The translations under genes and the position numbers were made by a program. A stretch of 64,000 nucleotides of DNA, from contig CBDAUJ010000002.1 in NCBI GenBank assembly GCA_965200545.1, forward strand, positions 1,288,850 to 1,352,849. Reading direction: 5' to 3'. Positions 14,533 through 51,177 of the stretch are shown piece by piece (position 1 is the stretch's first letter; every line of letters begins with the position of its first letter). The notes beneath the pieces were generated by a model. That model was not told the origin of the DNA. It searched no databases and was given only the letters and a program-made list of their open reading frames with translations. This DNA is from Arenicellales bacterium (GTDB lineage Bacteria; Pseudomonadota; Gammaproteobacteria; Arenicellales; JAJDZL01).

Positions 14533-14553
14533 GACTGAGGCTTAATCAGTTGT
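14533..14553 (+). repeat. candidate attL core (21-bp direct repeat)
   Basis: gactgaggcttaatcagttgt, identical to 51157-51177. The bases immediately flanking each copy differ. Confidence 0.7.
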
Positions 14554-14572
14554 ACCCAACAACACATGCTTA

Positions 14573-14603
14573 TTGACACATTACAAATATTGTAATGTGT
14601 CAA
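14573..14603. repeat. perfect 31-bp palindrome (14-bp arms, 3-nt centre)
   Basis: ttgacacattacaa-ata-ttgtaatgtgtcaa, 20 bp inside the candidate attL and about 250 bp upstream of the small recombinase gene. Confidence 0.9.
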
Positions 14604-14856
14604 AACTGTCATTAGGGGATTTTTTTTCTGAAATACTTCATTTTCTGATTGGCCGATCAAGGAAAAGATTCCTTACGCTAACGGACTTTTTCAGATATTT
14701 TAACAATTCAACATCAAATTTTAAATATTTTTTCAAAGAATTGTGCATTTAAGTCAAACATACGTGGGTGGAACGATTATTGGCAATAAATTATTTTGAA
14801 AACAACGACATTGACCATTGAATACCGTTTGCATACATTAGCATTTTTGTTGTAAT

Positions 14857-15507
14857 TTGAATCAATATAGACAACGTACTGTGTCAAACGCCACCAAAAA
14901 ATACCCAAACTGCGATGATTTGGGCCACTTGCTCGTGAGCCGTTTCGGGCGGAAATACCTTTCGAAAGAAGAGCGGCACCGATTTTTTGCCAGTGCGCGA
15001 CTAAGCGAAAAACCGGAATTGCAAACGTTTGCGCTGACCTTGGGCTATACCGGCGGAAGAATCTCTGAAATTCTTGCGCTTCGTGCCGGTGATGTGAGCC
15101 TGGAGAGAGCATCTGTTTTCGTCATTTCGCTTCGACGCAGCTACGAATCGTGGCGCGAGATACCGATACCGGAAGAATTCAACAGGGAATTGGAGTTGAC
15201 TCATCATCTGCGCCAGAAACAACTCAATGATGCGGATTCAAATACTCTGATTTGGAAATATTCTCGCTCGACGGCATACCGCCATATCACTAGAATCATG
15301 GCGCTGGCGCGAGTCAATGGAATTCAGGCAACACCTCAAGGATTGCGCCATAGCTTCGGAGTTTGTGCGGTTGAGGATGGTGTGCCGTTGCCGATTATTG
15401 CACAAGTGATGGGCCATATGAACTTGGATTCTGCGTCAGTCTACACAACCGCCACTGGCAATGAAGTTCGTGAATACTTAAAAAAAATGTGGCAGAATTC
15501 ATGCTAG
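14857..15507 (+). CDS. small tyrosine recombinase, catalytic domain only (FimB/FimE-like architecture)
   Basis: About 216 aa (TTG start uncertain). Catalytic signature GGRISE (Arg), LRHSF (H-x-x-R), GHMNLDSASVY (His...Tyr). There is no N-terminal SAM-like domain. Confidence 0.75.
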   Translation: MNQYRQRTVSNATKKYPNCDDLGHLLVSRFGRKYLSKEERHRFFASARLSEKPELQTFALTLGYTGGRISEILALRAGDVSLERASVFVISLRRSYESWREIPIPEEFNRELELTHHLRQKQLNDADSNTLIWKYSRSTAYRHITRIMALARVNGIQATPQGLRHSFGVCAVEDGVPLPIIAQVMGHMNLDSASVYTTATGNEVREYLKKMWQNSC

Positions 15508-15685
15508 CGTCTGATTATCTGTTCGCTGTCCACCGCGTAGATTCTTTGGGAAATATAGTTTTAGGTAGCCAGAGCCGCTATATCTTTGACTGAAACAATG
15601 TCCGGGCCAGATGCAAGAGCCGACCCGGATAAGAGTTAAATGAGGCTCTGTTTGGCTTGTTTGAAACAATGCCAATCAAATTGCG

Positions 15686-16597
15686 CTAGATGTTGTATTG
15701 ATCCAGTGTCGAGATCAATTCTCGGATATTTTCCAATTCTGGATGGATGTAGCGCATTGTTGTTTGCATAGTTGAGTGGCCAAGCAAGTTTTGGAGTTCC
15801 TTGTATTTTCCCTCTTTAGCCAGCTGGGTAGCAACTGTATGCCTTAAACGATGTGCAGAGATGCGGATGCCAGTGACCTGCGAAAGACGGTTGAAGAAAT
15901 TCGTAACTGTTGATAACTGCAGCTGATTTTTGCATCGATAGCGCGAATTGAACAAGCGAATGTCATAAACAAAACGCTCGTTGATATCAGCATCGAGGCC
16001 TAAACGTCTCAATGTCTCGGTTCGTATCTGCATTAGGCTATTGACTGCCGGAGTTGTCAGCGGAATATCCCAGCTCAATTTGGTTTTGCTGGAACGGGGG
16101 TCGAAAGTTATTTTTTTTTCGTCGAAGTCTATATCAGCCCAGCGCAAGCCAACTAACTGTTTGCGTCGCATGCCAGTGTAAAACAGAATTCGCACCACTG
16201 ACTTCCAGAACCAGTCTGGCTGAAAAATAGATTCTTTTGTATCCAGATACACCATGATTGCATGTAAATCAGCGATTCGAACAGTTTTGGGACGTGTTCG
16301 ATAGACTTTCTCGAAGTGATTTGTGCCAATCGGGTTGGAACTTAAGAGTCCTTCGCAAACTGCGAATCCCAAAAGAATACGCAAATGTCGCAGATAGTTG
16401 TTCAATGTAGACGGTTCGACTTGTCTAGCCAAAACTTTTTCAGACCATTCTTTGACCGTTTGCCTATTTACGTCTCGAACGTGCGTTACCTTCGTGTCTT
16501 TGACAAATAAGCGGGCGACGAACCGGTAGTGAAATTTGGTTTCGTTCGCCAGCTTGTTTGAGTCAACGTAATGTTTGGCTAGCGTTGATATTTTCAC
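15686..16597 (-). CDS. tyrosine-type site-specific integrase (XerC/D-sized)
   Basis: TGMRRKQL (Arg), AHRLRHT, LGHSTMQTTMRY. I place the start at the in-frame GTG at 16597, preceded by AGGAG 8 nt upstream. The ORF track extends to 16750. Confidence 0.85.
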   Translation of the reverse strand: MKISTLAKHYVDSNKLANETKFHYRFVARLFVKDTKVTHVRDVNRQTVKEWSEKVLARQVEPSTLNNYLRHLRILLGFAVCEGLLSSNPIGTNHFEKVYRTRPKTVRIADLHAIMVYLDTKESIFQPDWFWKSVVRILFYTGMRRKQLVGLRWADIDFDEKKITFDPRSSKTKLSWDIPLTTPAVNSLMQIRTETLRRLGLDADINERFVYDIRLFNSRYRCKNQLQLSTVTNFFNRLSQVTGIRISAHRLRHTVATQLAKEGKYKELQNLLGHSTMQTTMRYIHPELENIRELISTLDQYNI

Positions 16598-16631
16598 AAT
16601 AAATACTCCTAATTTAACTGAACATCTATTT

Positions 16632-16661
16632 CGTTGCATCGATCTATAGACTGATGCAACG
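16632..16661. promoter_or_regulatory. near-perfect 30-bp palindrome upstream of the integrase
   Basis: cgttgcatc-gatctatagact-gatgcaacg has 9-bp perfect outer arms and an inner tctataga palindrome. It lies 35 nt upstream of the proposed integrase start. Confidence 0.5.
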
Positions 16662-16856
16662 AGTAAGGCTGTAAATTTAGAATTTATTGCTATGAAAATG
16701 CAAGTCTTTTTTTGTGTATAGTTTCGATCGCGATACTTTCGTCGCTTCAAGAGTGAAAATGCAATTCAATATCGACTTGTTTTCTGAAAAACAGCAGGCA
16801 ACACACAAATTTTTGCAGTCGGTGCGTAGTTTGTAGGAAATTACGGCTTCGCATCG

Positions 16857-18407
16857 TCAAGGTCTCTTGCCCGTTCCCGGCATCAGTGTTTGTGCTCCGC
16901 TTTGAAATGCCGTATCCGAGCGGTTGCTGATTTGTGTCCAGCTTTGACCGAGTGAGCGCATTGCGGGCGCGCTGATAGCTCCGATCAGCACAAACCAACC
17001 CATCGGAAGAGTAATGTATGAGAACAAGGTAATCATGCTCAATACAATGTCCGCGGAGGTGCCGCTTCCGCCGAACTCCAGTATTGATGAATCGGGATAT
17101 AGGGTCTGCAGCAGTTTTTCGTCGAGGAACTCGGCTAACGCCCACAAGGCAGAGACAAATTTTAGGCAAAATAAAATCAAGACGATACGCACAATAATCA
17201 CCGGGTTGACCATCGCGTATGGAACGAGCAGAGGAATTGAGATATACACCAGCATCAGCATAAGTGCCTGCACCATAGGCAATCCAATCAGCACAAGTTC
17301 CATCACAACATGAAACAATGCAGACATGATCAGAGCTCCCATTGAGGCGATTATTTGCTGAATGCCATCCAGCGAAAAAATGCTATCCGAAAACCAGTAA
17401 ATTGAGTCGCCGCGGTCAGCGCGATTGGTCACGACCTGAGGTGTTTTGTTGATCAGGCGTCGCAGAAATCGATCTTCATGCTCCACAATTTTGCGCTGTA
17501 CCACTGTGGCATCGGTTCCATTGCTCGCTTTTGCAATCCGGTCCAAATCGCCCTGCAGCCACGGTGCACTAGTGTGCAATTGCGTGAGAAGCTTGGCTCG
17601 CAGACCGATCTCAGAATGTGTCCACCATAGGTCGCAATAGGGCTGACCAGGCAGTGCCATGTCGCTTTCCACAACACGCGCCCATGGTGACATCGCAGAA
17701 CTGGCATAGTAACCTGAACCGCATCTGTTGACATCATCACAGCGGCGATAATATCCAGCGGTGGTGAGAAATATATGCGAACCTAGCCAGTCAACTGACT
17801 GCATGATGCTGTCAGGCTTGGGCGGATTGGTTGCGTTTTGGTACTTGGCCAATGACGGCTCGTAACAATCCCGCCGGAATGCTCGCAGTTCTGTGAGCAA
17901 TTGCTCATCCGTCAGCTGCACCTGTCCGATTCTCATCAACGCAGGCCGCAGACCCGCGGGCTGTCCTAGCCAATCAATCGCCTTGATAACTGATTTCGTG
18001 AACAGGGCAGAAACCTCAATCGTCAGCCACCATAAAAGCGGCAGTTTGAATTGTTGAGCATATTCGGCATCAATCCGGTAGGGGAACTGACTGCTGTCGG
18101 TTGCTGCCGCAACTTTATCGTCGCCTCGAACATACTGAATATCGCCGCCTTGAATTGGAATTGCCGGCAAGAAGCACAAAATCAGGACAACAGTCACGAT
18201 TGCCACATCCTGTTCCATTCGACGCAGGGAAACTGGGGCGGCATTGCGCGATTCCTGACTTCGTGTGGGCTGGATCCAGTTTCGATATAAGGCAATTCCG
18301 ATTGGCAGGAACACTAGCCCGCTTGCTGTGAGCACTTGCGCGATACTGTTGGCGATGTGCCACCCAATCAGCGTGGTTGCAAACTCATAGTAAGAGTGAA
18401 CTTTCAC
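16857..18407 (-). CDS. traG: conjugal transfer protein TraG (ICE Mpf membrane protein, TraG N-terminal-domain type)
   Basis: 516-aa polytopic membrane protein at the end of the Mpf operon, following the PFL_4711-like gene as in PFGI-1/ICEclc-type elements. Confidence 0.65.
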   Translation of the reverse strand: MKVHSYYEFATTLIGWHIANSIAQVLTASGLVFLPIGIALYRNWIQPTRSQESRNAAPVSLRRMEQDVAIVTVVLILCFLPAIPIQGGDIQYVRGDDKVAAATDSSQFPYRIDAEYAQQFKLPLLWWLTIEVSALFTKSVIKAIDWLGQPAGLRPALMRIGQVQLTDEQLLTELRAFRRDCYEPSLAKYQNATNPPKPDSIMQSVDWLGSHIFLTTAGYYRRCDDVNRCGSGYYASSAMSPWARVVESDMALPGQPYCDLWWTHSEIGLRAKLLTQLHTSAPWLQGDLDRIAKASNGTDATVVQRKIVEHEDRFLRRLINKTPQVVTNRADRGDSIYWFSDSIFSLDGIQQIIASMGALIMSALFHVVMELVLIGLPMVQALMLMLVYISIPLLVPYAMVNPVIIVRIVLILFCLKFVSALWALAEFLDEKLLQTLYPDSSILEFGGSGTSADIVLSMITLFSYITLPMGWFVLIGAISAPAMRSLGQSWTQISNRSDTAFQSGAQTLMPGTGKRP

Positions 18408-18414: not shown

Positions 18415-19707
18415 TCAGCGGAGGAGCTGCGGCGGGCGCTGCCGCAACGGCAGTTGCGGCGTTTTCATTGTCTCGTGAGTTTCCAAGACTTGCTTGATTG
18501 TGCCCGAAATAATGCGACTGCTTAGTTCAAATTCAAACACCGCACGCTGGATTTCCTTTTCTAGCAAATCGATTTTTTGCTCGATTGTTGCAGTGACGGC
18601 GCCAACGCTTTGTATATTGGGTTCCATCATGCCGCTCAGCAGCAGTCGGCGTGCAAGAAAAGCCTTGTTGATTGATTGTGACAGTGCGATTTCGTTGGCG
18701 ATGCGCGGTGTCAGATAGTTCCTATCTGGCAAGTCGCGCAACGCATCAACCAGTGGTGCCGATACAACTGAGTTATCGCCCAGCAATTGAATGTCATCCG
18801 CCGACACGGGCCGGTTGGAGTACACGAGTTTTTGTAGCCGCTCATGAAATTTTGATGTCTCGCGCGCGATCTTGGGCAGCAGCCCGACTCCAGCTACGGT
18901 AAAATCGTGTTCCCCGTTTTGTATTCGATAGTCGCCGAGCACATCGACCAGCCATTGACTTGCCGCCTCTGGATTTGGCCACGTTTTGGACAGTGTGGTC
19001 GCATCATCATTTGTGAATATCCTGCCGGTTCCAGCGCAATTCGGAGATTCTCCCAGCAACAGGCACCACCCCGCGGCAACCGTATCTTTGATGAGCCATA
19101 TGGGTTCTTTGCCGCGACAGCCCGCTGCGTGACCGCCGATCCACTGAATGCACCCGTCGAACTGATCGACTTGCTTTTTGGCTGCTATTGCGGTTCGGCC
19201 ACTGGCGGTTTGCTGCTGCCAAGATTGAGCTCGCGCGGTTCGCGTCATGCTGTGAAATGGATTATTGTTACTAGCCAAAGCAGCCATTGAATTGTCGCAT
19301 GATGCAACCGCTCGGTTCCATTTGTCTTCCACTCTGACAAGGTAATGCTGCAACAGTTGGCACGCTGTTGGTTTGGCTCGGCACAAAATCGATCCTGGCA
19401 GTGCGGTCGCGGCAGCTTGCGAAATGTCGTCCAAAGTGGTCAAAGTGTCATTGAGCCGACTGCGGAAAATTGATTGAATTTCAGACTCTGCGTCAAATCG
19501 ACTACATACACGACTATGCTTCAAATTGTTTTTCGCCAGGCCGCCTAGACTGTCATATTCAGATGCTGGCTTGCTAACTGCTTGATCACCGCCGAGCGAA
19601 TAGTAAAGAGGGATGTTTTTGATTGTCGTCTGTGCGGATGCAACACCGCTCAACAGCGTTGCCGAAGCCAGCAACGACAAATAAATACGATATATGCAAC
19701 TGCTCAT
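18415..19707 (-). CDS. ICE Mpf periplasmic protein (PFL_4711/TIGR03755-like by position)
   Basis: 430 aa with a signal peptide (LLSGVASA|Q). Assigned by synteny next to traG. Confidence 0.55.
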   Translation of the reverse strand: MSSCIYRIYLSLLASATLLSGVASAQTTIKNIPLYYSLGGDQAVSKPASEYDSLGGLAKNNLKHSRVCSRFDAESEIQSIFRSRLNDTLTTLDDISQAAATALPGSILCRAKPTACQLLQHYLVRVEDKWNRAVASCDNSMAALASNNNPFHSMTRTARAQSWQQQTASGRTAIAAKKQVDQFDGCIQWIGGHAAGCRGKEPIWLIKDTVAAGWCLLLGESPNCAGTGRIFTNDDATTLSKTWPNPEAASQWLVDVLGDYRIQNGEHDFTVAGVGLLPKIARETSKFHERLQKLVYSNRPVSADDIQLLGDNSVVSAPLVDALRDLPDRNYLTPRIANEIALSQSINKAFLARRLLLSGMMEPNIQSVGAVTATIEQKIDLLEKEIQRAVFEFELSSRIISGTIKQVLETHETMKTPQLPLRQRPPQLLR

Positions 19708-19942: not shown

Positions 19943-21094
19943 TTGAACATCAAACATACGCCAACAACCGCACTTGCGGTCGAATTGATCCAACGTCCTT
20001 CAGTAACTCCAGATGACGCTGGGTGTCAAGCCATCATCGCCTCGCGTCTTGCACCGCTCGGTTTTAATATTGCATCGTTCGACAGCGCGGATGTAAGCAA
20101 TTTGTGGGCGCGTCGAGGCGAATCGAGTCCGTTGTTGGTATTTGTCGGACATACCGACGTTGTGCCACCCGGCAACGAGTCAGAATGGAACTATCCTCCT
20201 TTTGCAGCTGCGCTTGCGGATGGCATGGTGCATGGACGCGGAGCGGCCGATATGAAGAGCAGTGTGGCGGCCATGGTGACTGCTTGCGAACGATTTTTTT
20301 CTCACGCAGAGTCATTTCAAGGCTCGGTCGCCTTCTTGATTACTTCTGATGAAGAAGGAGAAGCAATAGATGGCACCCGAGTGGCGCTGGAGAAATTGGC
20401 TCAAGACAATGTTCAGATCGATTACTGCCTGGTAGGAGAGCCGACATCAGAGCAGCGATTGGGAGATGTCGTAAAAATCGGCCGTCGCGGTTCGCTGAGT
20501 GGAGAACTGAAAATATTTGGGATCCAAGGGCATGTTGCTTACCCGCATTTGGCTGACAATGCCATTCATCGAAGCGGGGCGCTGATTGATGCGATATCAA
20601 GATTGGAGTTTAGCGATGGCGACGAGTTTTTTCCGGATACAACCTGTCAGATTTCGAATCTGCGTGCAGGCGCCGGTGCTGGCAATGTTATTCCCGGTGT
20701 CGCTGAATTGAATTTGAACTTCAGGCATTCGCCGAACAGTCAGCCGCAGAATCTAATCAACGCAGTTGAGTCAATTTGTCATCGCTTGGACTTGAGATTT
20801 GAGTCAAGATGGGAAGTTAATGCGGAATGTTACCGAACCACCGAAACGGAGTTCGCTGACATCGTCTGCGAAGCCGTGTCCGACATCGTGAACGTAACAC
20901 CGCAGCGCTCGACTGCTGGCGGAACATCCGATGGACGCTTCGTTGCCAAATATGGAGCGCAAGTTGTTGAATTTGGACCGCTTAATGCAACGATTCACAA
21001 GGTCGATGAGTGTCTTGATCTTGAGGATTTGCAGCAGCTGTCAGCAATTTACGAACAGATTTTGAGGAGAATGAATGAAAAGCCAAATGAATAA
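19943..21094 (+). CDS. dapE: succinyl-diaminopimelate desuccinylase
   Basis: Collinear with E. coli DapE as I recall it (RPSVTPDDAGCQ, GHTDVVPPG, GRGAADMKSS, ITSDEEG, CLVGEPTS, GGTSDGRF). TTG start. Confidence 0.9.
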   Translation: MNIKHTPTTALAVELIQRPSVTPDDAGCQAIIASRLAPLGFNIASFDSADVSNLWARRGESSPLLVFVGHTDVVPPGNESEWNYPPFAAALADGMVHGRGAADMKSSVAAMVTACERFFSHAESFQGSVAFLITSDEEGEAIDGTRVALEKLAQDNVQIDYCLVGEPTSEQRLGDVVKIGRRGSLSGELKIFGIQGHVAYPHLADNAIHRSGALIDAISRLEFSDGDEFFPDTTCQISNLRAGAGAGNVIPGVAELNLNFRHSPNSQPQNLINAVESICHRLDLRFESRWEVNAECYRTTETEFADIVCEAVSDIVNVTPQRSTAGGTSDGRFVAKYGAQVVEFGPLNATIHKVDECLDLEDLQQLSAIYEQILRRMNEKPNE

Positions 21095-37836: not shown

Positions 37837-37855
37837 TTTTCTCTCCCTAAGTCAT

Positions 37856-41851: not shown

Positions 41852-42368
41852 TGAGCTGGGACTCTCGAAGCTTAGAGCGGCCAGCCAATCCGACCTCGAA
41901 ACTATGGTTCAGAACATCGAAGATGACTTTGCGCGGGAGTACGTCGACAATCTTTGCCTGCCGCACTGAATCCCCTCGCTGCAATCGGTATTCACGGTCT
42001 CCAAGTCGCACATACGCAGTCAGAGTATCAGCGCCGCCCGCGATTGCGTACACTTCAATTTCCTGTTCAAACCAGGTTGCCTGCTCCGCGGACAAGTCTG
42101 ATTCAGATGGCGGTTGCGGTTGGGTGCTCACAGGCATCGGGGGTGTGAACACAGTATCCAGATGAGTCTGAATTTCTGTGATCCGTAATGAGAGTTCCAG
42201 ATATTCAAGCAGTTTCGATTGAATATCCCTTTGGTTTTCCAAGCAGTCGATAATCTCAATCGTGCCATCAGCCTCGCGGCACTCGCTCGGCAGCCGGGTC
42301 GCTTCTGCCTTTGCTGACAAGCAGAAACTGAGACAAACGATCGCTGTCAAATCAATGAATTTTTGCAT
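41844..42368 (-). CDS. pilP: type IVb pilus biogenesis protein PilP-like
   Basis: Signal peptide MQKFIDLTAIVCLSFCLSAKA after the start was trimmed. It sits between pilO and pilQ. Confidence 0.55.
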   Translation of the reverse strand: MQKFIDLTAIVCLSFCLSAKAEATRLPSECREADGTIEIIDCLENQRDIQSKLLEYLELSLRITEIQTHLDTVFTPPMPVSTQPQPPSESDLSAEQATWFEQEIEVYAIAGGADTLTAYVRLGDREYRLQRGDSVRQAKIVDVLPRKVIFDVLNHSFEVGLAGRSKLRESQLNE

Positions 42369-43566: not shown

Positions 43567-45213
43567 TTAACGAATTCTGTTGTTGATTGCGACAAAATCA
43601 GTTGAGGGTGGAATAATTCGCGGTGTGATCAGCATCACTAGACTGGAGCGACGATTCTCAAGTTTTTTGCTACTGGACAGAATTCCGCTGCTTGTTTTGT
43701 TGTTGGTTCGAACAGTATCAAGGCCAGCGACGAATAATGTTTCCCCTGAACGCAGCAGCACTGGCAGCAGGATCGATCGGGTTTCCAGCTCAGGAAGTTG
43801 AATGGAAGGCTGGTCACTGCTTGGATTTTCAGGAAATTTGGAAATATTTTTGATTACAGTGGTGCGCATTGTGATGTTCATCATCATTTGGTTTGTGTTC
43901 GGCAGCACTCTGGGCAAAACGTTGAGTGCGACGCCGTCTTGCAACTGTCCAGGAACCAAACGGATGGTCGTGCCGCCGTCTTCTGTCACGACATCACGGC
44001 GCTGAAGGTAAGATCGCTCATCTCCAAAAAAGACGGGTATTGGCTGTCCGTTGATCCCGCGCAGTACGGTCGAAGTCAATTTTGAAACCCGTGCTCCACC
44101 TGCAGCGTTCTCTAATTTCAGTGTCAGATCCGCGGTATCAATTGTGCCGCCTTCCTGGTGTTGAAAAACCAGACCGAAAGCGTTGCCGCCTTCACTGCTG
44201 CTGAAATCGATTCTCCCGGAACTTTTGCCAAAAGCTTCCTGTGCAAATCCTGCAAAGTTGAAGCCTGAGCTGCCTTCTTCGGAACGGTCTATCTCATACA
44301 AATCAATGTTTATCAGCACTTGCGTAGCGAGTTCTTGGTTCTTGGCGATTACCCAGCTGTCTATGCGTTCCAAGACTTCTGGTATATCCACCGCAGTAAG
44401 TTCCCCCGACACGCGGTTGATCGCGACCTTGCCTGCCGTGGACAGCATGTTTGCAATTGACTTTTCGATCTCTTGCCAGAAATCTGCAGTGTCCATGGAT
44501 ACCACCACCTGGTCTCGAGCTTGCAGATTTGAGCCGCCATCCCCGCTGCGCGCGGACCCTGAAAGTCCAACAGAGGCCTGCCATTGAGTAACCACATTGG
44601 GTGAAAAAATAAGCCATGTGGCTAAATCCGTGAAGTACACTTCCACCTGATTGTCCAAATAACGCCAGTTCAGGCCGTAAGTTGCTGTGATGTAATCGAA
44701 GGCTTCCTGCGCGGTGCCGCTCCATTGAATTTCTGCAATGTCGATGGCGGGTACATCTTCACGCACACTAACGGGCACGCCAATTTTCACGGCGATCAGT
44801 TGCAAAATCGCTCGGAGACTTATCGTCTCAACGTACGCAATGCGGATGTTCTGATAGAGGTTTTGCGGAACAGCGGAAGATCCGGTTTTAATTCGGACAG
44901 GCTGACGCGGGCCAAACCATGACTCTGGCGATACTTCCGTCAGTGAGCCCGTCGTCTGCTGCTGCGCTGATTTGCGTCCTGCCTGAATGCCTGACTCAAC
45001 CTGAGTTGCTATCTGATCAGATGGATTTGTCAGCCATTCTGGGTAACTGCATCCGGCGAGCGCGATCAGCGAAACGCCACAGGCAGCGGCTGCAATCTTT
45101 CGTTGCCAGCAAATGCCGGATCGAGATTGTGCTGGGCACGAAGACAGCAAAAACAAACCTGATGAATGGGTTTTGTACAACCGGATGCACTGAGTGCTAT
45201 TTTTCAATTTCAT
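43567..45213 (-). CDS. pilN: type IVb pilus secretin lipoprotein PilN
   Basis: 548 aa with lipobox LAGCS and a C-terminal secretin domain ending ...SSLVMLITPRII. Confidence 0.75.
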   Translation of the reverse strand: MKLKNSTQCIRLYKTHSSGLFLLSSCPAQSRSGICWQRKIAAAACGVSLIALAGCSYPEWLTNPSDQIATQVESGIQAGRKSAQQQTTGSLTEVSPESWFGPRQPVRIKTGSSAVPQNLYQNIRIAYVETISLRAILQLIAVKIGVPVSVREDVPAIDIAEIQWSGTAQEAFDYITATYGLNWRYLDNQVEVYFTDLATWLIFSPNVVTQWQASVGLSGSARSGDGGSNLQARDQVVVSMDTADFWQEIEKSIANMLSTAGKVAINRVSGELTAVDIPEVLERIDSWVIAKNQELATQVLINIDLYEIDRSEEGSSGFNFAGFAQEAFGKSSGRIDFSSSEGGNAFGLVFQHQEGGTIDTADLTLKLENAAGGARVSKLTSTVLRGINGQPIPVFFGDERSYLQRRDVVTEDGGTTIRLVPGQLQDGVALNVLPRVLPNTNQMMMNITMRTTVIKNISKFPENPSSDQPSIQLPELETRSILLPVLLRSGETLFVAGLDTVRTNNKTSSGILSSSKKLENRRSSLVMLITPRIIPPSTDFVAINNRIR

Positions 45214-45219
45214 GTGCTG

Positions 45220-46047
45220 CTACCGTCCAGTCTGGGATCGAGGTTCAACCCGAAGTACCTTGTTGCCGCCGTAGAAAGTGGCTTTCAGAGGAATTGGCGC
45301 GCTGCGGTAGTGTTCAAGTACCTGGTTGACCGCGTCGGACAATGTGCCATGAAACGAAGTTGAGTGCTGAATCTGATAGTCATGCTGACTTCCCCATGCG
45401 AGAGACCAATTCACAGAACTGGCCCACCTGTGAAGGTTTTCTCGCAGCGACCCGGAGGTATCGAGCGTCCATGCCTGCTGAATAAATATCGTGGCTGAAT
45501 CACTCGGCTGGTCATAGCTGATGTGCGTTTCATTTTGAGGAGTCAATTGGTTTGCAGACCCGCTGGAAATGGCATTGCCGGGCTGCTCCAGCGTGAAATC
45601 TGGCGGCGCGCCGGCCAATTGAAACCAGATTACACGTCGTCTGCGGTCTTCTTTAAGTCGCCAAGAGCTTCCGACGATTGTCTGCAATGCTGACCGGATG
45701 TCAGTTGGACCGATTTTTCGGTGTGAACTTGGCAGCGGCAGGTGCAGCGAATGCTCGATATCTTTGGTCGCCAAATGCCGGTATCCTGAGCGATGCAGGA
45801 TATAGTCGATAGAGTCGCTGACTGTATGGACTTGTTTTGGAAACCGAGTTTCGATGATGGCCGAAAGCAGATCAACCTGGTCGCTGCTCGGACTGAGCGC
45901 ATGCAAGGTATATCGTGCATGATGTTCGCTGTCGGTCGCAGCAGCGTGAGTGGCTGATGCGATAAGGCAGGCGGCCACTCGCAAGAAGAATTTGAGTTGT
46001 ATCGGATACATGGATGCTAATTTGCACCTTCTGTGCAAAATGTTCAA
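45220..46047 (-). CDS. pilL: conjugative transfer region protein PilL (TcpQ-like C-terminal domain)
   Basis: 275 aa with a signal peptide and a C-terminal TcpQ-type block (RENLHRWASSVNWSLAW...). It is the first gene of the pil cluster. Confidence 0.6.
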   Translation of the reverse strand: MNILHRRCKLASMYPIQLKFFLRVAACLIASATHAAATDSEHHARYTLHALSPSSDQVDLLSAIIETRFPKQVHTVSDSIDYILHRSGYRHLATKDIEHSLHLPLPSSHRKIGPTDIRSALQTIVGSSWRLKEDRRRRVIWFQLAGAPPDFTLEQPGNAISSGSANQLTPQNETHISYDQPSDSATIFIQQAWTLDTSGSLRENLHRWASSVNWSLAWGSQHDYQIQHSTSFHGTLSDAVNQVLEHYRSAPIPLKATFYGGNKVLRVEPRSQTGR

Positions 46048-46089: not shown

Positions 46090-47034
46090 TCAGTGACAGG
46101 ACGTTTGGCAATATTGGTCTCCGTAGGCGGACTCTCCCATCAGGTAGCACCGTGCTTTCCAAGCTTCTGAGGAGCTGTCGAAAATTGCTCTTGGATCGTT
46201 TTCCAGTTTCTTGATCCAAGACAGAACATAAGCCTCGTGCTGATGGTGACCGGGAATTCCAAATTCGGCGCAAAGGAAAGCAGAGCCAATTTCTGCGATC
46301 ATTTCTTCATAGGCATATCGGTTTACGTCGATAGCTGATGCATGGGTAATTCCAGGGCGGTTCAATCGATTGCGGTGCCCCGTCCAGTGCGTCAATTCAT
46401 GCAGCAAGGTGGTGTAATAGCCTGATGTCGACTCGAAAGCAGTTTTAGATGGCATGAAAATAGTGTCTTTTTCAGCGCTGTAATATGCATCTTTTTTTCC
46501 GAATCGCAGCCGTACACTGTGCGTCGTGATCAGTCTGTCGGCTTGCTGATGGCGTTCCCAAGCGGATTTCAGCAGTGTCGGCTCAGGTTTGCCCTTCACG
46601 ATTTCTTCAGGCAGCCCAATGCACTGCTGGACATTGAAAAGGGTAAAACCGCGTATCATTTTGATGCGTTTGATATTGTTATGAGCCAACTCTGAGCTTG
46701 AATCAGGGTCTCCGTGTTTGCCTGGCACATTGATATATCGGAATAAAATTGCTGCCGTTCCTTTTTCGCCCCGACGAATCTTTCCGCCAGCAGTTTGAGC
46801 CTGTCTGAAAGTAAGCCAGCGATCGATTTCGAACCCCTGGACCGCCGCGGAGGCCCACAAGATAGTTACGTTAACGCCGCTGTATTTTCTCGCCGAGACT
46901 GCATTGGTGGGGCGTCCCGCGTAAGGCATATTGGTACTCCAAGGCTTGCACCAGGGCGGTGCGCCTTTAGTCAGCGCGGTGATGAATTGATCGGTCACTG
47001 TTTGATAAATCTTGTTGATACTGTTCGCTGCCAT
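46090..47034 (-). CDS. ardC: ArdC-like antirestriction protein (ssDNA-binding N-domain + zincin metalloprotease)
   Basis: 314 aa. The N-terminal part resembles DUF1738 and the C-terminal part carries the HExxH motif LLHELTHWTGH. Confidence 0.7.
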   Translation of the reverse strand: MAANSINKIYQTVTDQFITALTKGAPPWCKPWSTNMPYAGRPTNAVSARKYSGVNVTILWASAAVQGFEIDRWLTFRQAQTAGGKIRRGEKGTAAILFRYINVPGKHGDPDSSSELAHNNIKRIKMIRGFTLFNVQQCIGLPEEIVKGKPEPTLLKSAWERHQQADRLITTHSVRLRFGKKDAYYSAEKDTIFMPSKTAFESTSGYYTTLLHELTHWTGHRNRLNRPGITHASAIDVNRYAYEEMIAEIGSAFLCAEFGIPGHHQHEAYVLSWIKKLENDPRAIFDSSSEAWKARCYLMGESAYGDQYCQTSCH

Positions 47035-47198
47035 GGCTGTGCACTGTGGTGAGTGATAAGAGTGTCGGTATCAGCATACCTCCTGCCAATTGCATGGCAA
47101 AACAAAAAACCGGTTTCGCACAACGGACAATTGTCAATTATCCTGGGGTGAGGGAAATCAATCACATAGAAAGTGATTGATGCGAGTTTTAAACAGTT

Positions 47199-48533
47199 TC
47201 AGAATTTATCGTCTTGCTCTCTTTCTCGTGTGATTCTAAGTCTTTCCAGCAGCTGCTTATGATGCGTGTCTTCCGCATTTTTGAGTGCGTTCAGGTGCTT
47301 GGCGGCAGTTGCGCGGGATTCAAGTGTGCTGTATGCCAATTCAAGCTGGAATTGCCCTGCCTCTCGCAAGCCAATGCCGTTGTCAATGAGTCGTCTGCAG
47401 TATGTTGAAAATAGGGAAACCGGATTCCATACGATTGAGCTTTTGTTTTCCGAGCCTGCTTGCAGTCGGCCGTCAAGCTCGTCGAGCAGCAATTGTGCCC
47501 AAGTTCGCCATGGCGCGGGCGGCGGTGGCAGATCTTTAGGCAGCCGAAGCAGATGTAAGCCGATCAGCTGGATCTGATTGTCACTCAGTGACTTTGGGAA
47601 GATGAGGTCAGTCAGTTCACGGTTCATTTCGCTGACGTGTGCATAGTGGTATTTTTCTTCTGCTAGATTTTTTTCAAAACCGCTAGAACTACGACTACAA
47701 CCACTACTACTATGATTTAGTCTTGGTTCGGTTCGGTTCATCTTGCGTCCGAAGTTCACCTCAGCTTTACCGCGGTTTGCAGACTGAACTTCGGTGTTCG
47801 ATACACCGCAGTTCATTTCCTGAACTTCGGTTGATTCAACCTTTATGCCTCGATAAAGTCCCGCCAGTGTGTTGGGATTTGAAGCTGTTGACTGAGCGCC
47901 GGTCGCTGATGTAACGGCGTTACGCTGCTGCGCCGCCAACGCGTCCCAAGTCATTTTGCGGCGTTCGAAAGGATGCGGCTCGTCCATTAGATCGTAGTCG
48001 CTGTCCAGCTCTCGGTCAATTGAGCTTAGAATCATCTCTGATATTTTCCGCGTATCCGAATTTCGATGCTGCCGACAGTCATTCAAATAGCTCATGTAAT
48101 TTGAATCGACATCCATCGTGTCTGCCAGACTAAGCGGTTCACCATGTACCAGGTAGATATTTCCGTCTCTCGAGAATTGACCGCTGGCGTTGCGCACCTG
48201 CTCCCGGCATACCAGCGTGATCCAGCGGGTTACTCTCAGCTTGGCAATTGAGCTTGAAACTGTGGCTCTTGAGACGTGCAGACATGATTGAATGTCATTG
48301 TAGCTGGGGAATGCTGCGAGAGACAGGGCAGGTGAGCAGAATGTTCTGATTGTCATCCAGATGAGTTTGTCATAAGGCGTCAGAATAGGGTCAAAAAGCA
48401 GCAGGCGTGGATGTGAATCATACCAATTGTCGGTGTAGATCATCCCCGACTGTGACCGATCTGCATTGCGAAAATTTTCGATTGCACACAAAATTTGCTG
48501 GAAATTCTCATGCGGTTTATTGTATTGAGTCAT
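47199..48533 (-). CDS. pathogenicity-island replication/maintenance protein (STY4528-like), wHTH N-domain
   Basis: 444 aa. Assigned from its position after the DUF2857-like gene and ParB, as in SPI-7/PFGI-1-type islands. Confidence 0.45.
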   Translation of the reverse strand: MTQYNKPHENFQQILCAIENFRNADRSQSGMIYTDNWYDSHPRLLLFDPILTPYDKLIWMTIRTFCSPALSLAAFPSYNDIQSCLHVSRATVSSSIAKLRVTRWITLVCREQVRNASGQFSRDGNIYLVHGEPLSLADTMDVDSNYMSYLNDCRQHRNSDTRKISEMILSSIDRELDSDYDLMDEPHPFERRKMTWDALAAQQRNAVTSATGAQSTASNPNTLAGLYRGIKVESTEVQEMNCGVSNTEVQSANRGKAEVNFGRKMNRTEPRLNHSSSGCSRSSSGFEKNLAEEKYHYAHVSEMNRELTDLIFPKSLSDNQIQLIGLHLLRLPKDLPPPPAPWRTWAQLLLDELDGRLQAGSENKSSIVWNPVSLFSTYCRRLIDNGIGLREAGQFQLELAYSTLESRATAAKHLNALKNAEDTHHKQLLERLRITREREQDDKF

Positions 48534-48651
48534 AGGGAACCTCGCATAAGGCTGAACGGGTCAATAACAAGAGTCAGAGGTGTAATTGGGTAAACCCATT
48601 GCAAAGGCACTTATGCGAGATTCACATTCGAAAAGCATGAGTATGGATATC

Positions 48652-49236
48652 CTAGACACGGTTCGAGCGATGTACTTTCAATTTGCCTGATTCTTCCCAT
48701 TGGTAAAACAGATGCCAAATCGTTCGCAGTGAAATTTTTCTGTCCAGAGACTCATACAGTGCAGCAAATTCTTTCGGTCCGAATTCACTGGATTTTTCAA
48801 CCACTGTCTTCAGTTTTTTCCAAACGGCGTCAGATTCTCTTTTGCTCGGCAGTTTAGGTCGCCCGGACAGAGCTTTACCCAGTCCCAGCTCTCTGCGTTT
48901 GAATGTGTACTGTTTTCCGCCCATCCCGGTCAGTGAGTGAATCATGGGCAAGGGCGCGTCCGCAGCAATCAAATCGTTAACAAACGCATCTCGTTCCTGT
49001 TCCCGCTGGATATAGTCGATCGTTCGCCAGAATGTCTTTGTGTTGAGCTGAATATCCATGAAGTGCGACCGCATTGAACTCATCTGGAGTTTATCGGCGG
49101 AGGATAATTTCGCAACTGCATTGGTCTCCAGTGGTCCAAAGCCCATCTGGCTCAGTGCTGTGTAGTCTCCCTCTTCCCGGCAGCGGTGGCAGTAGACAAT
49201 GATTGCGTGAATGAGTTCTGTTTCTTTCGTGATCAT
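48652..49236 (-). CDS. DUF2857-like island protein (STY4526/YPO1902-like)
   Basis: 194 aa, immediately downstream of the ICE-type parB. Assigned by synteny. Confidence 0.45.
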   Translation of the reverse strand: MITKETELIHAIIVYCHRCREEGDYTALSQMGFGPLETNAVAKLSSADKLQMSSMRSHFMDIQLNTKTFWRTIDYIQREQERDAFVNDLIAADAPLPMIHSLTGMGGKQYTFKRRELGLGKALSGRPKLPSKRESDAVWKKLKTVVEKSSEFGPKEFAALYESLDRKISLRTIWHLFYQWEESGKLKVHRSNRV

Positions 49237-49248
49237 GATTTCGATTAC

Positions 49249-50925
49249 TCAGGAACTGTTTGGTGGCTGAAACAAGTCAAAATTGTGTTTTCTCGATAAG
49301 GCGTGAATCGATCGGTAAGTTCGCATCAACTGCACGAATTCCTGCATAGACTGATCATCCCATAGCCTGACGCTGAAAGTCATCACGCCAAGATGCGGGA
49401 ATACACACTTCATCCTATTTTTCGCGAGCAAATGCAGTGTTTTGGTATTGTTTGACTTGACATATGTCTCAAGCGGCGAGTCGCCGACAATTTTGACGAC
49501 GGTTGTCTTCGCACTCGACACAGCCCACTGCAAGTCCGACAGTTCGGTCAGCAGCCACCACAGTGCATCGCGCATCCCGGCTTGTTTGGTGGTCAGTCCT
49601 GCAATCGAAGTCGGAAAGTCTCGAACCAAAAATCCGATACCCCAGTTACCTGTGTTTATGATCGTGGCTAGCTTCTGATTATCCGTCTTCAGCAGTCGAT
49701 GCCGTTTGGCGAGGTTCCAAGCCAGTCTATAGGCGGTCGTGCGCAGGCTTTTCAGCTGCGCTGCAGCTTCGTCAGGGATTGAGTGCGAGATATTGCCGTC
49801 GAGCTCTGGAATGACCGGCGACTGGTGACATGCATTGTAGCGAGACGAAGTGTCACTCGATTTTGTGATATCTTCAGCCATTTTTTTTGTTCCTCGAGTT
49901 GATTGAGTCAAATTTTCTTCTTGCAAAAAATGGGTGTTTACACTGTAAACACCCATTTTTTGCGTTCCGATCTCAGCATTGTCGGGCCACTGATCGCATG
50001 CCAGTGCAATCGGCGCGACACACAGGTGTTCTGCCGTGTCGCTCAGTGGTGTTGTGGACAGGGTCAAGTAGCTCTCAATCCGCAAATATATGTCTTGGAT
50101 TGAGGCTGACTGCTGTTCAGCAAGAGTCGCTTCGAGCCGACTGCGAAAGTGGTTGAATGACCAAGATGGCTCGTTGTAGTTTCGGAGTGACTCAGCGAAC
50201 ATCTTGTCCCGCTCTGCGGTCGGTATTTGCATTTCATCGCATAGTTTTCTGAAACTGTTGTCCAGTCGCGAGATTCTCTTAATTTGCGGACGTCCCAAAT
50301 ATGCTGCGATGTCCCTACTGATGTGCGGGTCGATTTTCTCATTGGCGTAGGTCATGAAATACAGGTTGCTAAGAGTAATGGCATAGCCTTTATCCCTGAG
50401 CAGCGAAGTGATTTTTCGCAAAGACAGATTTTCATCGCCGGTCTCAAGCTTGATTTGCTTGATAGCAGCGTTGATTCCATAGGCACGATCAAGAAAACAT
50501 AGTGACCCGCGGGATAAGTTTTCCTGAAGATGTCCGACGATGGCATCCGATTCAAGCCCGGTCCACGGCAGCAGCGTGCAAATCACATGCTCATATTTTT
50601 CATCTGCAGTGTCTTCATACAGCTCGCGTATTGCCTTGAGTCGAGCATTTCCGCCTTTGAATATCATGTATTTGGACTCTCCAGATTTGCGTGTTACGAT
50701 CAAGGGATGAAGAATTCCATCCCTAGTGATCGATTGCTTCAGCGCATCAAATTCCGGATGTGCCAATCTGCGGGGATTTTTATCGTACGGTTCGATTTGA
50801 TCGACTCGCAGAGAGACCAGAGACTGCAAATGGTTTCCATTCGCGCAACGAGTTACATCTTGCTCGTTTGTGCTAGCAAACATTCTTGAAAGTGGTTTCG
50901 CAGGTTTGGCTTCTTGGCTTTGCAT
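49249..50925 (-). CDS. parB: ParB-family protein, ICE (PFGI-1) class
   Basis: 558 aa with an N-terminal ParB/Srx fold (VDQIEPYDKNPRR ... HPLIVT ... IFKGGNARLKAIREL) and a long C-terminal extension typical of the ICE class. Confidence 0.75.
   Translation of the reverse strand: MQSQEAKPAKPLSRMFASTNEQDVTRCANGNHLQSLVSLRVDQIEPYDKNPRRLAHPEFDALKQSITRDGILHPLIVTRKSGESKYMIFKGGNARLKAIRELYEDTADEKYEHVICTLLPWTGLESDAIVGHLQENLSRGSLCFLDRAYGINAAIKQIKLETGDENLSLRKITSLLRDKGYAITLSNLYFMTYANEKIDPHISRDIAAYLGRPQIKRISRLDNSFRKLCDEMQIPTAERDKMFAESLRNYNEPSWSFNHFRSRLEATLAEQQSASIQDIYLRIESYLTLSTTPLSDTAEHLCVAPIALACDQWPDNAEIGTQKMGVYSVNTHFLQEENLTQSTRGTKKMAEDITKSSDTSSRYNACHQSPVIPELDGNISHSIPDEAAAQLKSLRTTAYRLAWNLAKRHRLLKTDNQKLATIINTGNWGIGFLVRDFPTSIAGLTTKQAGMRDALWWLLTELSDLQWAVSSAKTTVVKIVGDSPLETYVKSNNTKTLHLLAKNRMKCVFPHLGVMTFSVRLWDDQSMQEFVQLMRTYRSIHALSRKHNFDLFQPPNSS
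49925..49961. repeat. perfect 37-bp palindrome inside parB
   Basis: aaaaaatgggtgtttaca-c-tgtaaacacccatttttt has 18-bp arms around a 1-nt centre. It encodes ...QKMGVYSVNTHFLQ... in ParB. Confidence 0.95.
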
Positions 50926-51156
50926 TGTCTCCTCCGCCGGTGGATCTACAATCGCATTCAGTGATCAGGTCTTGCCGAGTCAGTTAAAAAATATGTACTT
51001 CACGGATGTCTTTGATGAATGCAAAATTTCAGTGCTGTGTGACCGCAATGGAACAAGCAACTGAATCTTGCCTGCCCGAAAAAACTCACGTGACTGGCTT
51101 TGGCAATAGGTCATATCGATTCTGTTAAAATATTTACATCTAATAAATATTAGTTT

Positions 51157-51177
51157 GACTGAGGCTTAATCAGTTGT
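51157..51177 (+). repeat. candidate attR core (21-bp direct repeat)
   Basis: Identical to 14533-14553. It lies 231 bp beyond the parB start. Confidence 0.7.

What the first reader, a model, noticed from the sequence alone, without database searches (positions are those of the whole stretch)
14533..51177. ICE-like island with intact pore and pilus modules but no relaxase, coupling protein, ParA or DnaB
**Seen in the sequence.**
- A perfect 21-bp direct repeat (gactgaggcttaatcagttgt) brackets 36.6 kb.
- Two tyrosine recombinases lie at the left end and an ICE-class ParB at the right end.
- Between them lie an apparently intact Mpf operon (TraG, a 944-aa VirB4-like ATPase and about 10 small envelope proteins) and a type IVb pilus cluster.
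- Every ORF over 500 aa in the island is accounted for: traG, traC, pilV, pilQ, pilN and parB.

**From established knowledge.** In the PFGI-1/ICEclc/SPI-7/PAPI-1 family as I recall it, a TraD-type coupling protein, a MOBH TraI relaxase, ParA and DnaB are backbone genes. None fits any ORF here.

**Inference.** The element may be an unusually reduced lineage that relies on functions supplied in trans. It may be a domesticated pore/pilus machine no longer used for its own transfer. It may be a decaying ICE caught before its Mpf genes accumulate lesions.

The attachment site is also not at a tRNA 3' end, which is unusual for this family.
Basis: partly seen in the sequence, partly recalled or inferred. 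Interest (0 to 1): 0.75.

Follow-up and report, generated by a model that had tools for sequence, protein, structure and literature searches.

The report
Conjugation-pore island lacking DNA-transfer genes
This 36.6-kb island looks like a self-transmissible DNA element and keeps its integrase, membrane pore and pilus genes, but it has lost every gene that would feed DNA into the pore; related marine bacteria keep the same reduced layout intact, so it is a conserved reduced lineage and not a decaying remnant.

Summary
A perfect 21-bp direct repeat at 14533 and 51157 bounds an MPF_G (ICEclc/PFGI-1/PAPI-1-type) island. It has two tyrosine recombinases, TraG, TraC, about 12 small Mpf proteins, a PilL–PilV type IVb pilus cluster, ArdC, an STY4528-family protein, DUF2857 and ParB.

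HMM scans and six-frame tblastn find no TraD, TIGR03747, MobH relaxase, ParA, DnaB or SSB. The largest unassigned gap is 324 bp.

- A dapE–argD–potA-like–terC block sits between TraU and TIGR03755.
- An IS1595 copy splits the first codons of pilR.

The layout is conserved, including the embedded dapE block and the missing TraD. It occurs in an Arenicellales MAG at the same chromosomal site (all 35 genes intact, dN/dS 0.05–0.28). The covered portions of two more distant genomes (TraC 71% and 62%) show the same order.

The repeat is a recombinase core: ACTGA, a 7-nt spacer, TCAGT. The spacer differs between genomes but is identical at both ends within each.

"Decaying ICE" is rejected. Whether the machine is exapted or uses transfer functions supplied in trans remains open. 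Verdict: a new variant of the known MOBless T4SS kind; interest about 0.6.

The parts
14533..14553 (.). attL: 21-bp core G-ACTGA-GGCTTAA-TCAGT-TGT (5-bp inverted arms around a 7-nt spacer)
14573..14603 (.). Perfect 14-nt-arm palindrome just inside attL. It may be a recombinase or regulator binding site (inference).
   Evidence: partly conserved in the sister genome
14857..15507 (+). Small tyrosine recombinase (216 aa), with weak similarity to FimB/FimE-type invertases
   Evidence: orthologue 94% aa, dN/dS 0.08
15686..16750 (-). Xer-like tyrosine integrase. The longest ORF is 354 aa; the orthologue is 303 aa, so the true start is probably about 16597.
   Evidence: orthologue 95% aa, dN/dS 0.056
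16857..18407 (-). TraG (TraG_N) Mpf membrane protein
   Evidence: tblastn controls
18415..19707 (-). TIGR03755-like ICE Mpf protein (243 bits, below the 270.45 cutoff)
19943..21094 (+). dapE, succinyl-diaminopimelate desuccinylase, embedded in the Mpf gene row
   Evidence: 496 bits, cutoff 284; co-diverges with TraC
21113..22321 (+). argD/dapC-type acetylornithine/succinyl-diaminopimelate transaminase
22441..23568 (-). Orphan PotA-like ABC ATPase with no permease next to it. It is the best-conserved island protein (82% aa to both distant relatives).
23892..24482 (-). TerC-family membrane protein
   Evidence: Pfam TerC on the orthologues
24720..26197 (-). TIGR03756 (TraU-like), and a TIGR03757-like protein (DUF1525; 41 bits, below its cutoff)
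26201..29035 (-). TraC, the VirB4-class conjugative ATPase (TIGR03744). Walker A and B residues are invariant in 20 homologues.
29032..33504 (-). Small Mpf envelope proteins: TIGR03751, TIGR03752, TIGR03749, TIGR03746, TIGR03750-like (sub-cutoff), a DUF2976-like protein, a 73-aa protein, and RAQPRD (TIGR01690)
33653..35189 (-). A TIGR03759-like protein and a 249-aa unknown protein. In canonical elements TraD and TIGR03747 lie between TIGR03759 and RAQPRD; here only 148 bp lie there.
35186..38881 (-). pilU (prepilin peptidase A24), pilV (510-aa minor pilin), pilS (major pilin), and pilR (GspF-like platform protein, with its 5' end cut off by the IS)
38896..40179 (-). IS1595-family insertion sequence with target duplication TAAATTAA. 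It is absent at this site in the sister genome.
40184..46047 (-). pilQ (ATPase), pilP, pilO, pilN (secretin), pilL (TIGR03748 lipoprotein)
46090..49236 (-). ArdC (ArdcN plus zincin domain), STY4528-family 'island replication' protein, DUF2857 protein
49249..50925 (-). PFGI-1-class ParB (TIGR03764)
49923..49963 (.). 41-bp palindrome (20-nt arms around one central base) inside parB; a candidate parS-like site
   Evidence: 41/41 identical in the sister genome, with the core kept in the 71%-TraC relative
51157..51177 (.). attR: identical 21-bp core

Best explanation
The island belongs to a conserved lineage of MPF_G (ICEclc/PFGI-1/PAPI-1-type) integrative elements in Arenicellales-like marine Gammaproteobacteria.

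This lineage has cleanly lost two modules:
- The whole DNA-transfer module: the TraD coupling protein, its neighbour TIGR03747, and the MobH relaxase.
- The ParA/DnaB/SSB maintenance set.

It keeps, under purifying selection, the following parts:
- the complete mating-pore set driven by the TraC ATPase;
- the R64-like type IVb pilus;
- ParB with a candidate parS site;
- ArdC;
- an Xer-like integrase acting on a 21-bp core site (ACTGA, 7-nt spacer, TCAGT).

Shown: it cannot load its own DNA into its pore by the canonical route, so it is not an autonomous ICE. It has co-diverged with its host at the same locus in two species. It carries what looks like the clade's own dapE and argD, which would penalise loss of the island.

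Inferred: the pore and pilus are retained as a working envelope machine for a role other than self-transfer. That role could be cell-cell or host attachment, or T4CP-independent secretion or uptake, as in ComB or Ptl. The integrase and att module still recombines occasionally.
For: Gene content.

Absence of transfer genes, with positive controls.

Sister genome OZ243928.1 (an Arenicellales MAG):
- The flanks and the island are collinear at 82-90% nucleotide identity.
- All 35 orthologues are intact.
- dN/dS is 0.05-0.28. Island dS is about 0.5, against 0.52 for ppx and 0.16-0.33 for the right flank, so nothing points to recent transfer.

The same architecture, with no TraD and with the terC-potA-argD-dapE block, appears in the covered portions of relatives whose TraC is 71% and 62% identical.

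TraC Walker A and B residues are invariant in 20 homologues.

TraC and DapE distances correlate across 14 contigs (Mantel r = 0.95; 0 of 5000 permutations reached it), and the trees agree closely.

The island's DapE clade sits as sister to ordinary gammaproteobacterial DapE. Each chromosome appears only once among the best 120 hits.

Island GC (0.498) matches the flanks.

att: both ends are identical within each genome and the spacer differs between genomes.

MOBless T4SS are regarded as frequent exaptations (PMC3158045, PMC3548315).
Against: - The integrases are among the most constrained genes (dN/dS 0.056 and 0.08).
- The repeats are perfect and their spacers co-vary.
- The 71%-TraC relative has a different right flank beyond a conserved att-like core.
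- ArdC, ParB and the STY4528-family protein are kept.
- Cargo varies at the TraU/TIGR03755 hotspot.

All of these are expected of an element that still moves, which a purely domesticated machine would not need.

No substrate or effector candidate is evident. No known exapted MPF_G system exists to compare with. Whole genomes could not be scanned for a T4CP or relaxase encoded elsewhere. In this particular genome an IS has just cut pilR, so the machine may be impaired here.
Confidence: 0.5

Rival explanations
1. Split conjugation system. The island is still a mobile element that excises through its integrase and supplies the pore and pilus. The coupling protein and relaxase are encoded elsewhere in the genome, on a mobilisable element, a plasmid, or a second fragment of a multipartite ICE. 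They would act on an oriT inside the island.
For: - The integrases are intact and strongly constrained, and the repeats are perfect with co-varying spacers.
- The 71%-TraC relative keeps the att-like core at a different chromosomal junction.
- ArdC (anti-restriction on entry), ParB with a palindrome, and the STY4528-family protein are retained.
- There are two recombinases, as in multipartite ICEs (own knowledge: the Mesorhizobium tripartite ICE).
- Hitcher/helper splits between elements are common (bioRxiv 10.64898/2026.01.13.699239).
Against: - No T4CP or relaxase lies in the 64-kb window, in 62 kb of the sister genome, or in 44 kb of the third genome.
- Only one lineage TraC per chromosome was seen in the TraC search, so no sibling MPF_G ICE shows up on those contigs. 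That search has weak sensitivity.
- T4CPs normally co-evolve with their own VirB4 class (PMC3548315).
- A stable split kept over TraC divergence down to 58% would be unusual.
- Island dS is not lower than flank dS.
Confidence: 0.3
2. The element is autonomous but uses a relaxase and/or coupling function that current profiles do not recognise. Candidates are the STY4528-family protein, the long ParB, ArdC, or the 249-aa unknown protein.
For: MOBH relaxases of this ICE family were themselves recognised late (own knowledge). New relaxase families keep appearing (MOB_M in bioRxiv 10.64898/2026.01.13.699239). Several island proteins have no assigned function.
Against: - Apart from cargo, the island's gene set is a subset of canonical elements. 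Those elements carry ParB, DUF2857 and STY452x-type proteins in addition to TraD and MobH.
- Nothing new has been gained where TraD was lost.
- There are no further P-loop ATPases.
Confidence: 0.07
3. A decaying ICE caught before its pore genes accumulate lesions.
For: Automated schemes class incomplete MPF systems as decayed ICEs (bioRxiv 10.64898/2026.01.13.699239). In this genome an IS1595 copy has cut pilR.
Against: - There is no pseudogene among 35 genes in the sister genome, and none among the covered genes of two more distant genomes.
- dN/dS is 0.05-0.28.
- The architecture is stable down to 62% TraC identity.
- No remnants of the lost genes remain.
Confidence: 0.05
4. Not an island. 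The repeat is coincidental and the region is ordinary ancestral chromosome.
For: The locus is the same in two species. Composition is host-like. Housekeeping dapE and argD lie inside.
Against: The repeat lies exactly at both ends of the ICE gene set in two genomes and at the one end covered in a third. It has recombinase-core anatomy. It is adjacent to the integrases. It is not a dispersed repeat.
Confidence: 0.03

Closest known systems
MPF_G ICEs: ICEclc (Pseudomonas knackmussii), PFGI-1, PAPI-1/pKLC102, ICEHin1056, SPI-7
   Same: - The same family-specific Mpf set: TIGR03744 TraC; TIGR03746, 03749, 03751, 03752 and 03756; sub-cutoff matches to 03750, 03755, 03757 and 03759; RAQPRD; TraG_N.
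- A PilL-PilV type IVb pilus, as in PAPI-1 and SPI-7.
- TIGR03764 ParB, DUF2857, an STY4528-family protein and ArdC.
- A tyrosine integrase with direct repeats.
   Different: - No TraD, TIGR03747, MobH TraI, ParA, DnaB, SSB or SLT.
- A short Xer-like integrase acting on an intergenic 21-bp site instead of a tRNA 3' end.
- dapE, argD, a potA-like gene and terC inside the Mpf row.
- TraC is at most 37% identical to any catalogued plasmid-borne MPF_G TraC.
MOBless T4SS (Guglielmini et al. 2011 and 2012; PMC3158045, PMC3548315)
   Same: A VirB4 gene with type-specific Mpf genes and no neighbouring relaxase. It is chromosomal, conserved, and not degraded.
   Different: - Those papers report experimentally shown protein delivery only for MPF_T and MPF_I, and describe MPF_G as almost exclusively ICE.
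- This system also lacks the T4CP.
- It keeps an integrase and perfect att repeats.
T4CP-less exapted T4SS: Helicobacter pylori ComB (DNA uptake) and Bordetella Ptl (toxin export). The identification with these systems rests on my own knowledge.
   Same: A VirB4-driven envelope channel that works without a coupling protein or a relaxase.
   Different: Those are MPF_T systems with known substrates. Here the class is MPF_G with an added type IVb pilus, and no substrate is known.
Decayed ICEs (dICE) as called by MPF-completeness pipelines (bioRxiv 10.64898/2026.01.13.699239)
   Same: It would be labelled this way because the T4CP and relaxase are missing.
   Different: It shows no pseudogenes, strong purifying selection, and an architecture stable across deep divergence.

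Membership tests
MPF_G (ICEclc/PFGI-1/ICEHin1056-type) autonomous ICE | MPF_G-specific mating-pore proteins, including the TIGR03744 TraC ATPase | tested here: met
   TraC scores 863 bits against a cutoff of 520.6. TIGR03756, 03751, 03752, 03749, 03746 and TIGR01690 are above their cutoffs. TIGR03755, 03757, 03750 and 03759 are below their cutoffs but significant.
MPF_G (ICEclc/PFGI-1/ICEHin1056-type) autonomous ICE | Type IV coupling protein TraD (TIGR03743/TIGR03754) | tested here: not met
   No NCBIfam or Pfam hit on any ORF. tblastn with two canonical TraD proteins gave E > 1 across the window and relatives, with controls positive. Only 148 bp lie at the canonical TraD position.
MPF_G (ICEclc/PFGI-1/ICEHin1056-type) autonomous ICE | MOBH relaxase TraI (TIGR03760 / MobH) | tested here: not met
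   No family hit. tblastn with a MobH relaxase gave E >= 2.3 or no hit at all.
MPF_G (ICEclc/PFGI-1/ICEHin1056-type) autonomous ICE | Integrase plus flanking direct repeats (attL/attR) | tested here: met
   Two Phage_integrase proteins. A perfect 21-bp repeat lies at both ends, in this genome and in the sister genome.
MPF_G (ICEclc/PFGI-1/ICEHin1056-type) autonomous ICE | Integration into the 3' end of a tRNA gene (usual for the family; own knowledge) | tested here: not met
   ARAGORN and Rfam find nothing at either end. The only tRNA is tRNA-Leu at 59170.
MPF_G (ICEclc/PFGI-1/ICEHin1056-type) autonomous ICE | ParA-DnaB-ParB maintenance module | tested here: not met
   ParB (TIGR03764) is present. 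ParA, SSB and PFL_4669 are absent by HMM scan and tblastn, and DnaB is absent by HMM scan only, because no DnaB reference sequence was used.
MOBless T4SS (Guglielmini et al.) | VirB4 with type-specific Mpf genes and no relaxase in the neighbourhood | tested here: met
   There is no relaxase in the 64-kb window or in 62 kb of the sister genome.
MOBless T4SS (Guglielmini et al.) | Non-conjugative function (secretion or uptake) | not testable with these tools
   This needs experiments or expression data.
R64-type type IVb thin pilus | PilL lipoprotein, PilN secretin, PilO, PilP, PilQ ATPase, PilR platform, PilS pilin, PilU peptidase, PilV minor pilin | tested here: met
   PilP and PilV are assigned by position and by a shared prepilin N-terminus. 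pilR is interrupted at its 5' end by IS1595 in this genome.
R64-type type IVb thin pilus | pilV shufflon with the Rci recombinase | tested here: not met
   pilV is directly followed by pilU, and no inverted-repeat segments are present. The small recombinase lies 20 kb away at attL.

The most novel reading that the evidence does not exclude
This would be the first documented exaptation of an MPF_G conjugation machine. The reading is a pore plus type IVb pilus free of coupling protein and relaxase, kept under selection across an order-level clade of (partly sponge-associated) Arenicellales-like bacteria for attachment, secretion or DNA uptake. It would be locked into the chromosome by capture of the clade's only dapE and dapC genes, while keeping a live integrase/att module whose crossover spacer co-evolves at both ends.
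Probability: 0.3. Interest if true: 0.8.

Novelty: new variant of a known kind. Interest (0 to 1): 0.6.

Why it matters
MPF_G systems are described as almost exclusively ICE-borne and are known only as conjugation machines (PMC3158045, PMC3548315). This lineage has shed every DNA-processing and coupling gene. Yet it keeps the pore, the pilus, the integrase and the att site under purifying selection over deep divergence.

There are two ways to read that:
- It shows a new use of this machinery.
- It shows a stable division of labour between a pore-only element and transfer functions encoded elsewhere.

It is also a caution for automated classifiers, which would label it a decayed ICE. The embedded and apparently native dapE and argD genes suggest a way a mobile element can make itself indispensable. 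The hosts are uncultured marine, partly symbiotic bacteria, in which surface machines for host contact are of interest.

Tried and rejected
- IS-mediated deletion or inversion as the cause of the missing genes: rejected. Each IS1595 copy has its own 8-bp target duplication (ATAATTTT and TAAATTAA). The sister genome lacks the IS at that site yet also lacks TraD and TraI.
- Exact-sequence look-ups of window proteins (Ppx, HpaB-like, ClpX, TraC) found nothing, and P0013 was also not on record.
- The degenerate att pattern in JGI metagenomes returned three copies of one unrelated sequence, with no island or flank genes. This gave no information on empty sites.
- The viral-contig scan with a TraC alignment gave one distant hit at 35% identity, which I did not pursue.
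- Contig length as a fingerprint to find relatives that have DapE but no TraC: abandoned as evidence. Clusters report only their longest contig, so a non-match is ambiguous.
- I did not search a canonical TraD against the protein database for a trans copy. The word prefilter recovers few homologues at about 35% identity, as the TraC search showed, so a negative result would mean little.
- Locus L003 (TraC 46%) was first read as a decayed version. Its TraU is in fact one intact frame, so I make no such claim.
- Rfam and ARAGORN searches at the att site were negative.
- The literature searches turned up no description of this lineage or of a T4SS in Arenicellales.

Full report
**1. The observation**

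The 21-mer GACTGAGGCTTAATCAGTTGT occurs exactly twice in the window, at 14533 and 51157, in direct orientation. None of 100 shuffles gave a match. Identity between the two ends stops exactly at the 21-mer.

All 35 ORFs between the repeats were scanned against NCBIfam, and the unassigned ones against Pfam. Reading from attR on the minus strand, the order is:
- ParB (TIGR03764), DUF2857, an STY4528-family 'island replication' protein, ArdC
- PilL, PilN, PilO, PilP, PilQ, then an IS1595 copy, then PilR, PilS, PilV, PilU
- a 249-aa unknown protein, a TIGR03759-like protein, RAQPRD, a 73-aa protein, a DUF2976-like protein
- TIGR03750-like, 03746, 03749, 03752, 03751
- TraC (TIGR03744, 863 bits), TIGR03757-like, TIGR03756/TraU
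- TerC, a PotA-like ATPase, ArgD, DapE
- TIGR03755-like, TraG_N
- an Xer-like integrase, a small tyrosine recombinase, then attL

The flanks are ordinary chromosome. On the left are gshA, ilvD, ispG, birA and ppx. On the right are an hpaB-like gene, a Rid-family gene, an aminotransferase, an OYE-type reductase, tRNA-Leu, tig, clpP and clpX. No tRNA or Rfam RNA lies at either junction.

**2. The missing genes are really missing**

No ORF hits a T4CP, relaxase, ParA, DnaB or SSB model. I took two canonical reference sets. One is a metagenomic locus with TraC 34% identical (L004). The other is the annotated Nitrogeniibacter plasmid NZ_CP071322.1.

Six-frame tblastn with these sets gave the following:
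- TraD, TIGR03747, MobH, ParA, SSB, PFL_4669 and SLT gave nothing better than E = 0.39 in the window or in the relatives.
- TraC, TIGR03752, 03755, 03756, 03746, TraG and ParB from the same references scored 1e-21 to 1e-170.

The only genuine Walker A motifs in the island are in TraC, PilQ and the PotA-like ATPase. Genes plus the IS cover 93.6% of the island and the largest gap is 324 bp. That leaves no room for pseudogene remnants. In canonical elements TraD and TIGR03747 lie between TIGR03759 and RAQPRD. Here that interval is 148 bp.

**3.

(a) The Mpf gene row is split by a 4.8-kb block of dapE, argD/dapC, a potA-like gene and terC. DapE scores 496 bits against an equivalog cutoff of 284.

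(b) Two IS1595 copies, 1280 of 1284 bases identical, lie in the window in inverted orientation. One is in the left flank and one is between pilQ and pilR. Each has its own 8-bp target duplication, so they are simple insertions and not the scars of a deletion or inversion. The island copy sits in codons 5-7 of pilR. Removing it restores an N-terminus, MRYMLNLIYLK..., that matches the orthologue in the sister genome. In this genome, therefore, the pilus platform gene has lost its start codon. Genes downstream may suffer polar effects (inference).

**4. Relatives**

*Sister genome.* The ppx flank led to OZ243928.1, 'MAG: Arenicellales bacterium', a 3.29-Mb circular chromosome. Three overlapping loci assemble into 62 kb. 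This stretch is collinear with window 61104-12439 at 82-90% identity, with the same flanks on both sides.
- All 35 island genes have intact orthologues at 67-95% amino-acid identity.
- dN/dS is 0.05-0.28 and island dS is 0.33-0.83. For comparison, ppx has dS 0.52 and the right-flank genes 0.16-0.33.
- The island is therefore not younger than its surroundings, and every gene is under purifying selection.
- The sister genome lacks the IS in pilR. It carries about 5 kb of extra cargo (methyltransferase fragments and T5orf172 genes) on either side of terC. The TraU/TIGR03755 junction is thus a cargo hotspot.

*More distant genomes.* A second circular chromosome (ERZ25070917 ctg125699; TraC 71%, ParB 45%) and a MAG labelled Acidiferrobacterales (GCA_028820695.1; TraC 62%) show the same gene order over the stretches recovered. 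The first covers ParB to the start of the integrase. The second covers PilQ to TraG. In both there is no TraD, and the TerC, ABC ATPase, aminotransferase and DapE block lies between TraU and TIGR03755.

*Wider sampling.*
- Across 14 contigs that carry both proteins, TraC and DapE distance matrices correlate at r = 0.95 (0 of 5000 permutations reached it), and the trees share the same major clades.
- The DapE clade is sister to ordinary gammaproteobacterial DapE such as Halomonas at about 55% identity.
- Each large chromosome appears once among the best 120 DapE hits. This suggests, but does not prove, that the island's dapE is the clade's own copy.
- TraC Walker A and B residues are invariant in 20 homologues.
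- The nearest plasmid-borne TraC is only 37% identical. The lineage is therefore a deep branch of MPF_G.

**5. The attachment site**

The 21-mer reads G-ACTGA-GGCTTAA-TCAGT-TGT: 5-bp inverted arms around a 7-nt spacer. That is the anatomy of a tyrosine-recombinase core site.
- In the sister genome both ends carry GACTGAGGGCTAATCAGTTGT. The two ends are identical to each other and differ from the window only at two spacer positions.
- The 71%-TraC relative has AACTGAGGGTTAATCAGGTGT at its ParB-side boundary, next to a different chromosomal flank of glycolysis genes.

Variation is thus concentrated in the spacer (the third genome also differs at two positions outside it) and is matched at both ends within a genome. 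This is what is expected if the two sites must still recombine with each other, or if the integrations were independent (inference). The integrases are among the most constrained genes in the island (dN/dS 0.056 and 0.08). The repeat is not a dispersed element.

**6. Interpretation**

*Decay is excluded at the lineage level.* What remains is a non-autonomous element derived from an ICE. It has a complete pore, a pilus, ParB, ArdC and an apparently live integration module, but no means of recruiting DNA to the pore.

*For a fixed, exapted machine:*
- The locus is the same in two species and has diverged along with the host.
- Composition is host-like: GC 0.498 against 0.475-0.53 in the flanks.
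- Apparently native DAP-pathway genes lie inside it.
- There is no transfer gene of any kind.
- There is precedent that MOBless T4SS are usually recruited machines and not wrecks (PMC3158045, PMC3548315).
- T4CP-less systems such as ComB and Ptl show that a VirB4-driven channel can work without a coupling protein (own knowledge).

*For continued mobility with help supplied in trans:*
- The recombination module is constrained.
- The third genome has a different flank.
- ArdC, ParB and the STY4528-family protein are retained.
- Cargo varies at the hotspot.

I give an unrecognised relaxase 0.07, decay 0.05 and 'not an island' 0.03.

**7. Comparison and novelty**

The island works like the mating-pair-formation half of an ICEclc/PAPI-1-type element. 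It fails the membership test for an autonomous MPF_G ICE on the T4CP, the relaxase, ParA/DnaB and the tRNA target. It fits the known category of MOBless T4SS. Within that category it is unusual in three ways: it is of the MPF_G class, it also lacks the T4CP, and it keeps its integrase and att site. Pipelines would label it a decayed ICE (bioRxiv 10.64898/2026.01.13.699239).

My searches turned up no description of this lineage or of a T4SS in Arenicellales.

Verdict: a real feature and a new variant of a known kind, with interest about 0.6. Interest would rise to about 0.8 if whole-genome scans confirm that no coupling protein or relaxase exists anywhere in these chromosomes.

Noticed in passing
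window 49923-49963 (inside parB): A 41-bp palindrome, GCAAAAAATGGGTGTTTACA-C-TGTAAACACCCATTTTTTGC, lies in the variable linker of ParB. It is 41/41 identical in the sister genome even though indels lie next to it. The 71%-TraC relative keeps the core GGTGTTTAC...GTAAACACC. The half-site resembles chromosomal parS (TGTTTCAC; own knowledge). It is a candidate parS for a ParB that has no ParA.
   Followed up: partly
window 8921-10204 and 38896-40179: Two nearly identical IS1595-family copies (1280/1284) lie in inverted orientation, each with its own 8-bp target duplication. GC is 0.61 against about 0.50 for the surroundings. This indicates recent transposition in this genome. The copies could mediate a future inversion of 10205-38895 that would split the island.
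   Followed up: yes
window 14573-14603: A perfect palindrome, TTGACACATTACAA-ATA-TTGTAATGTGTCAA, lies 20 bp inside attL. A related half-site lies at 14876-14887, at the start of the small recombinase gene. It is only partly palindromic in the sister genome.
   Followed up: partly
window 22441-23568: An orphan PotA-like ABC ATPase with a TOBE domain has no permease or binding protein next to it. It is the most conserved protein of the island (82% aa to relatives whose TraC is 62-71% identical). Its role is unexplained.
   Followed up: no
L007 14483-19214 (OZ243928.1): The sister genome carries extra cargo on either side of terC: N6_N4 methyltransferase fragments, T5orf172 domain genes and a 229-aa ORF. 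GCA_028820695.1 has an intact methyltransferase in the same hotspot (L008 16642-17529).
   Followed up: no
window 11865-11900: A tandem 18-nt repeat, TAAACGGGCCAATAG(C/T)AA, lies in the poorly coding stretch between birA and ppx. Synteny with the sister genome ends just left of ppx (window about 12439).
   Followed up: no
L003 (ERZ25068685 ctg6867), TraC 46%: This is a more distant variant with a different order: TIGR03751, TraU, TraC, TIGR03755, TraG. No TraD, pil genes or integrase lie within 10 kb. An rve-type IS lies upstream and purH and groESL lie directly downstream. It may be a second, independent reduced form.
   Followed up: partly
window 14857-15507: The second recombinase is only 216 aa (208 aa in the sister genome). 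Its best, weak matches are to FimB/FimE-type invertases. No invertible segment or shufflon was found nearby.
   Followed up: partly
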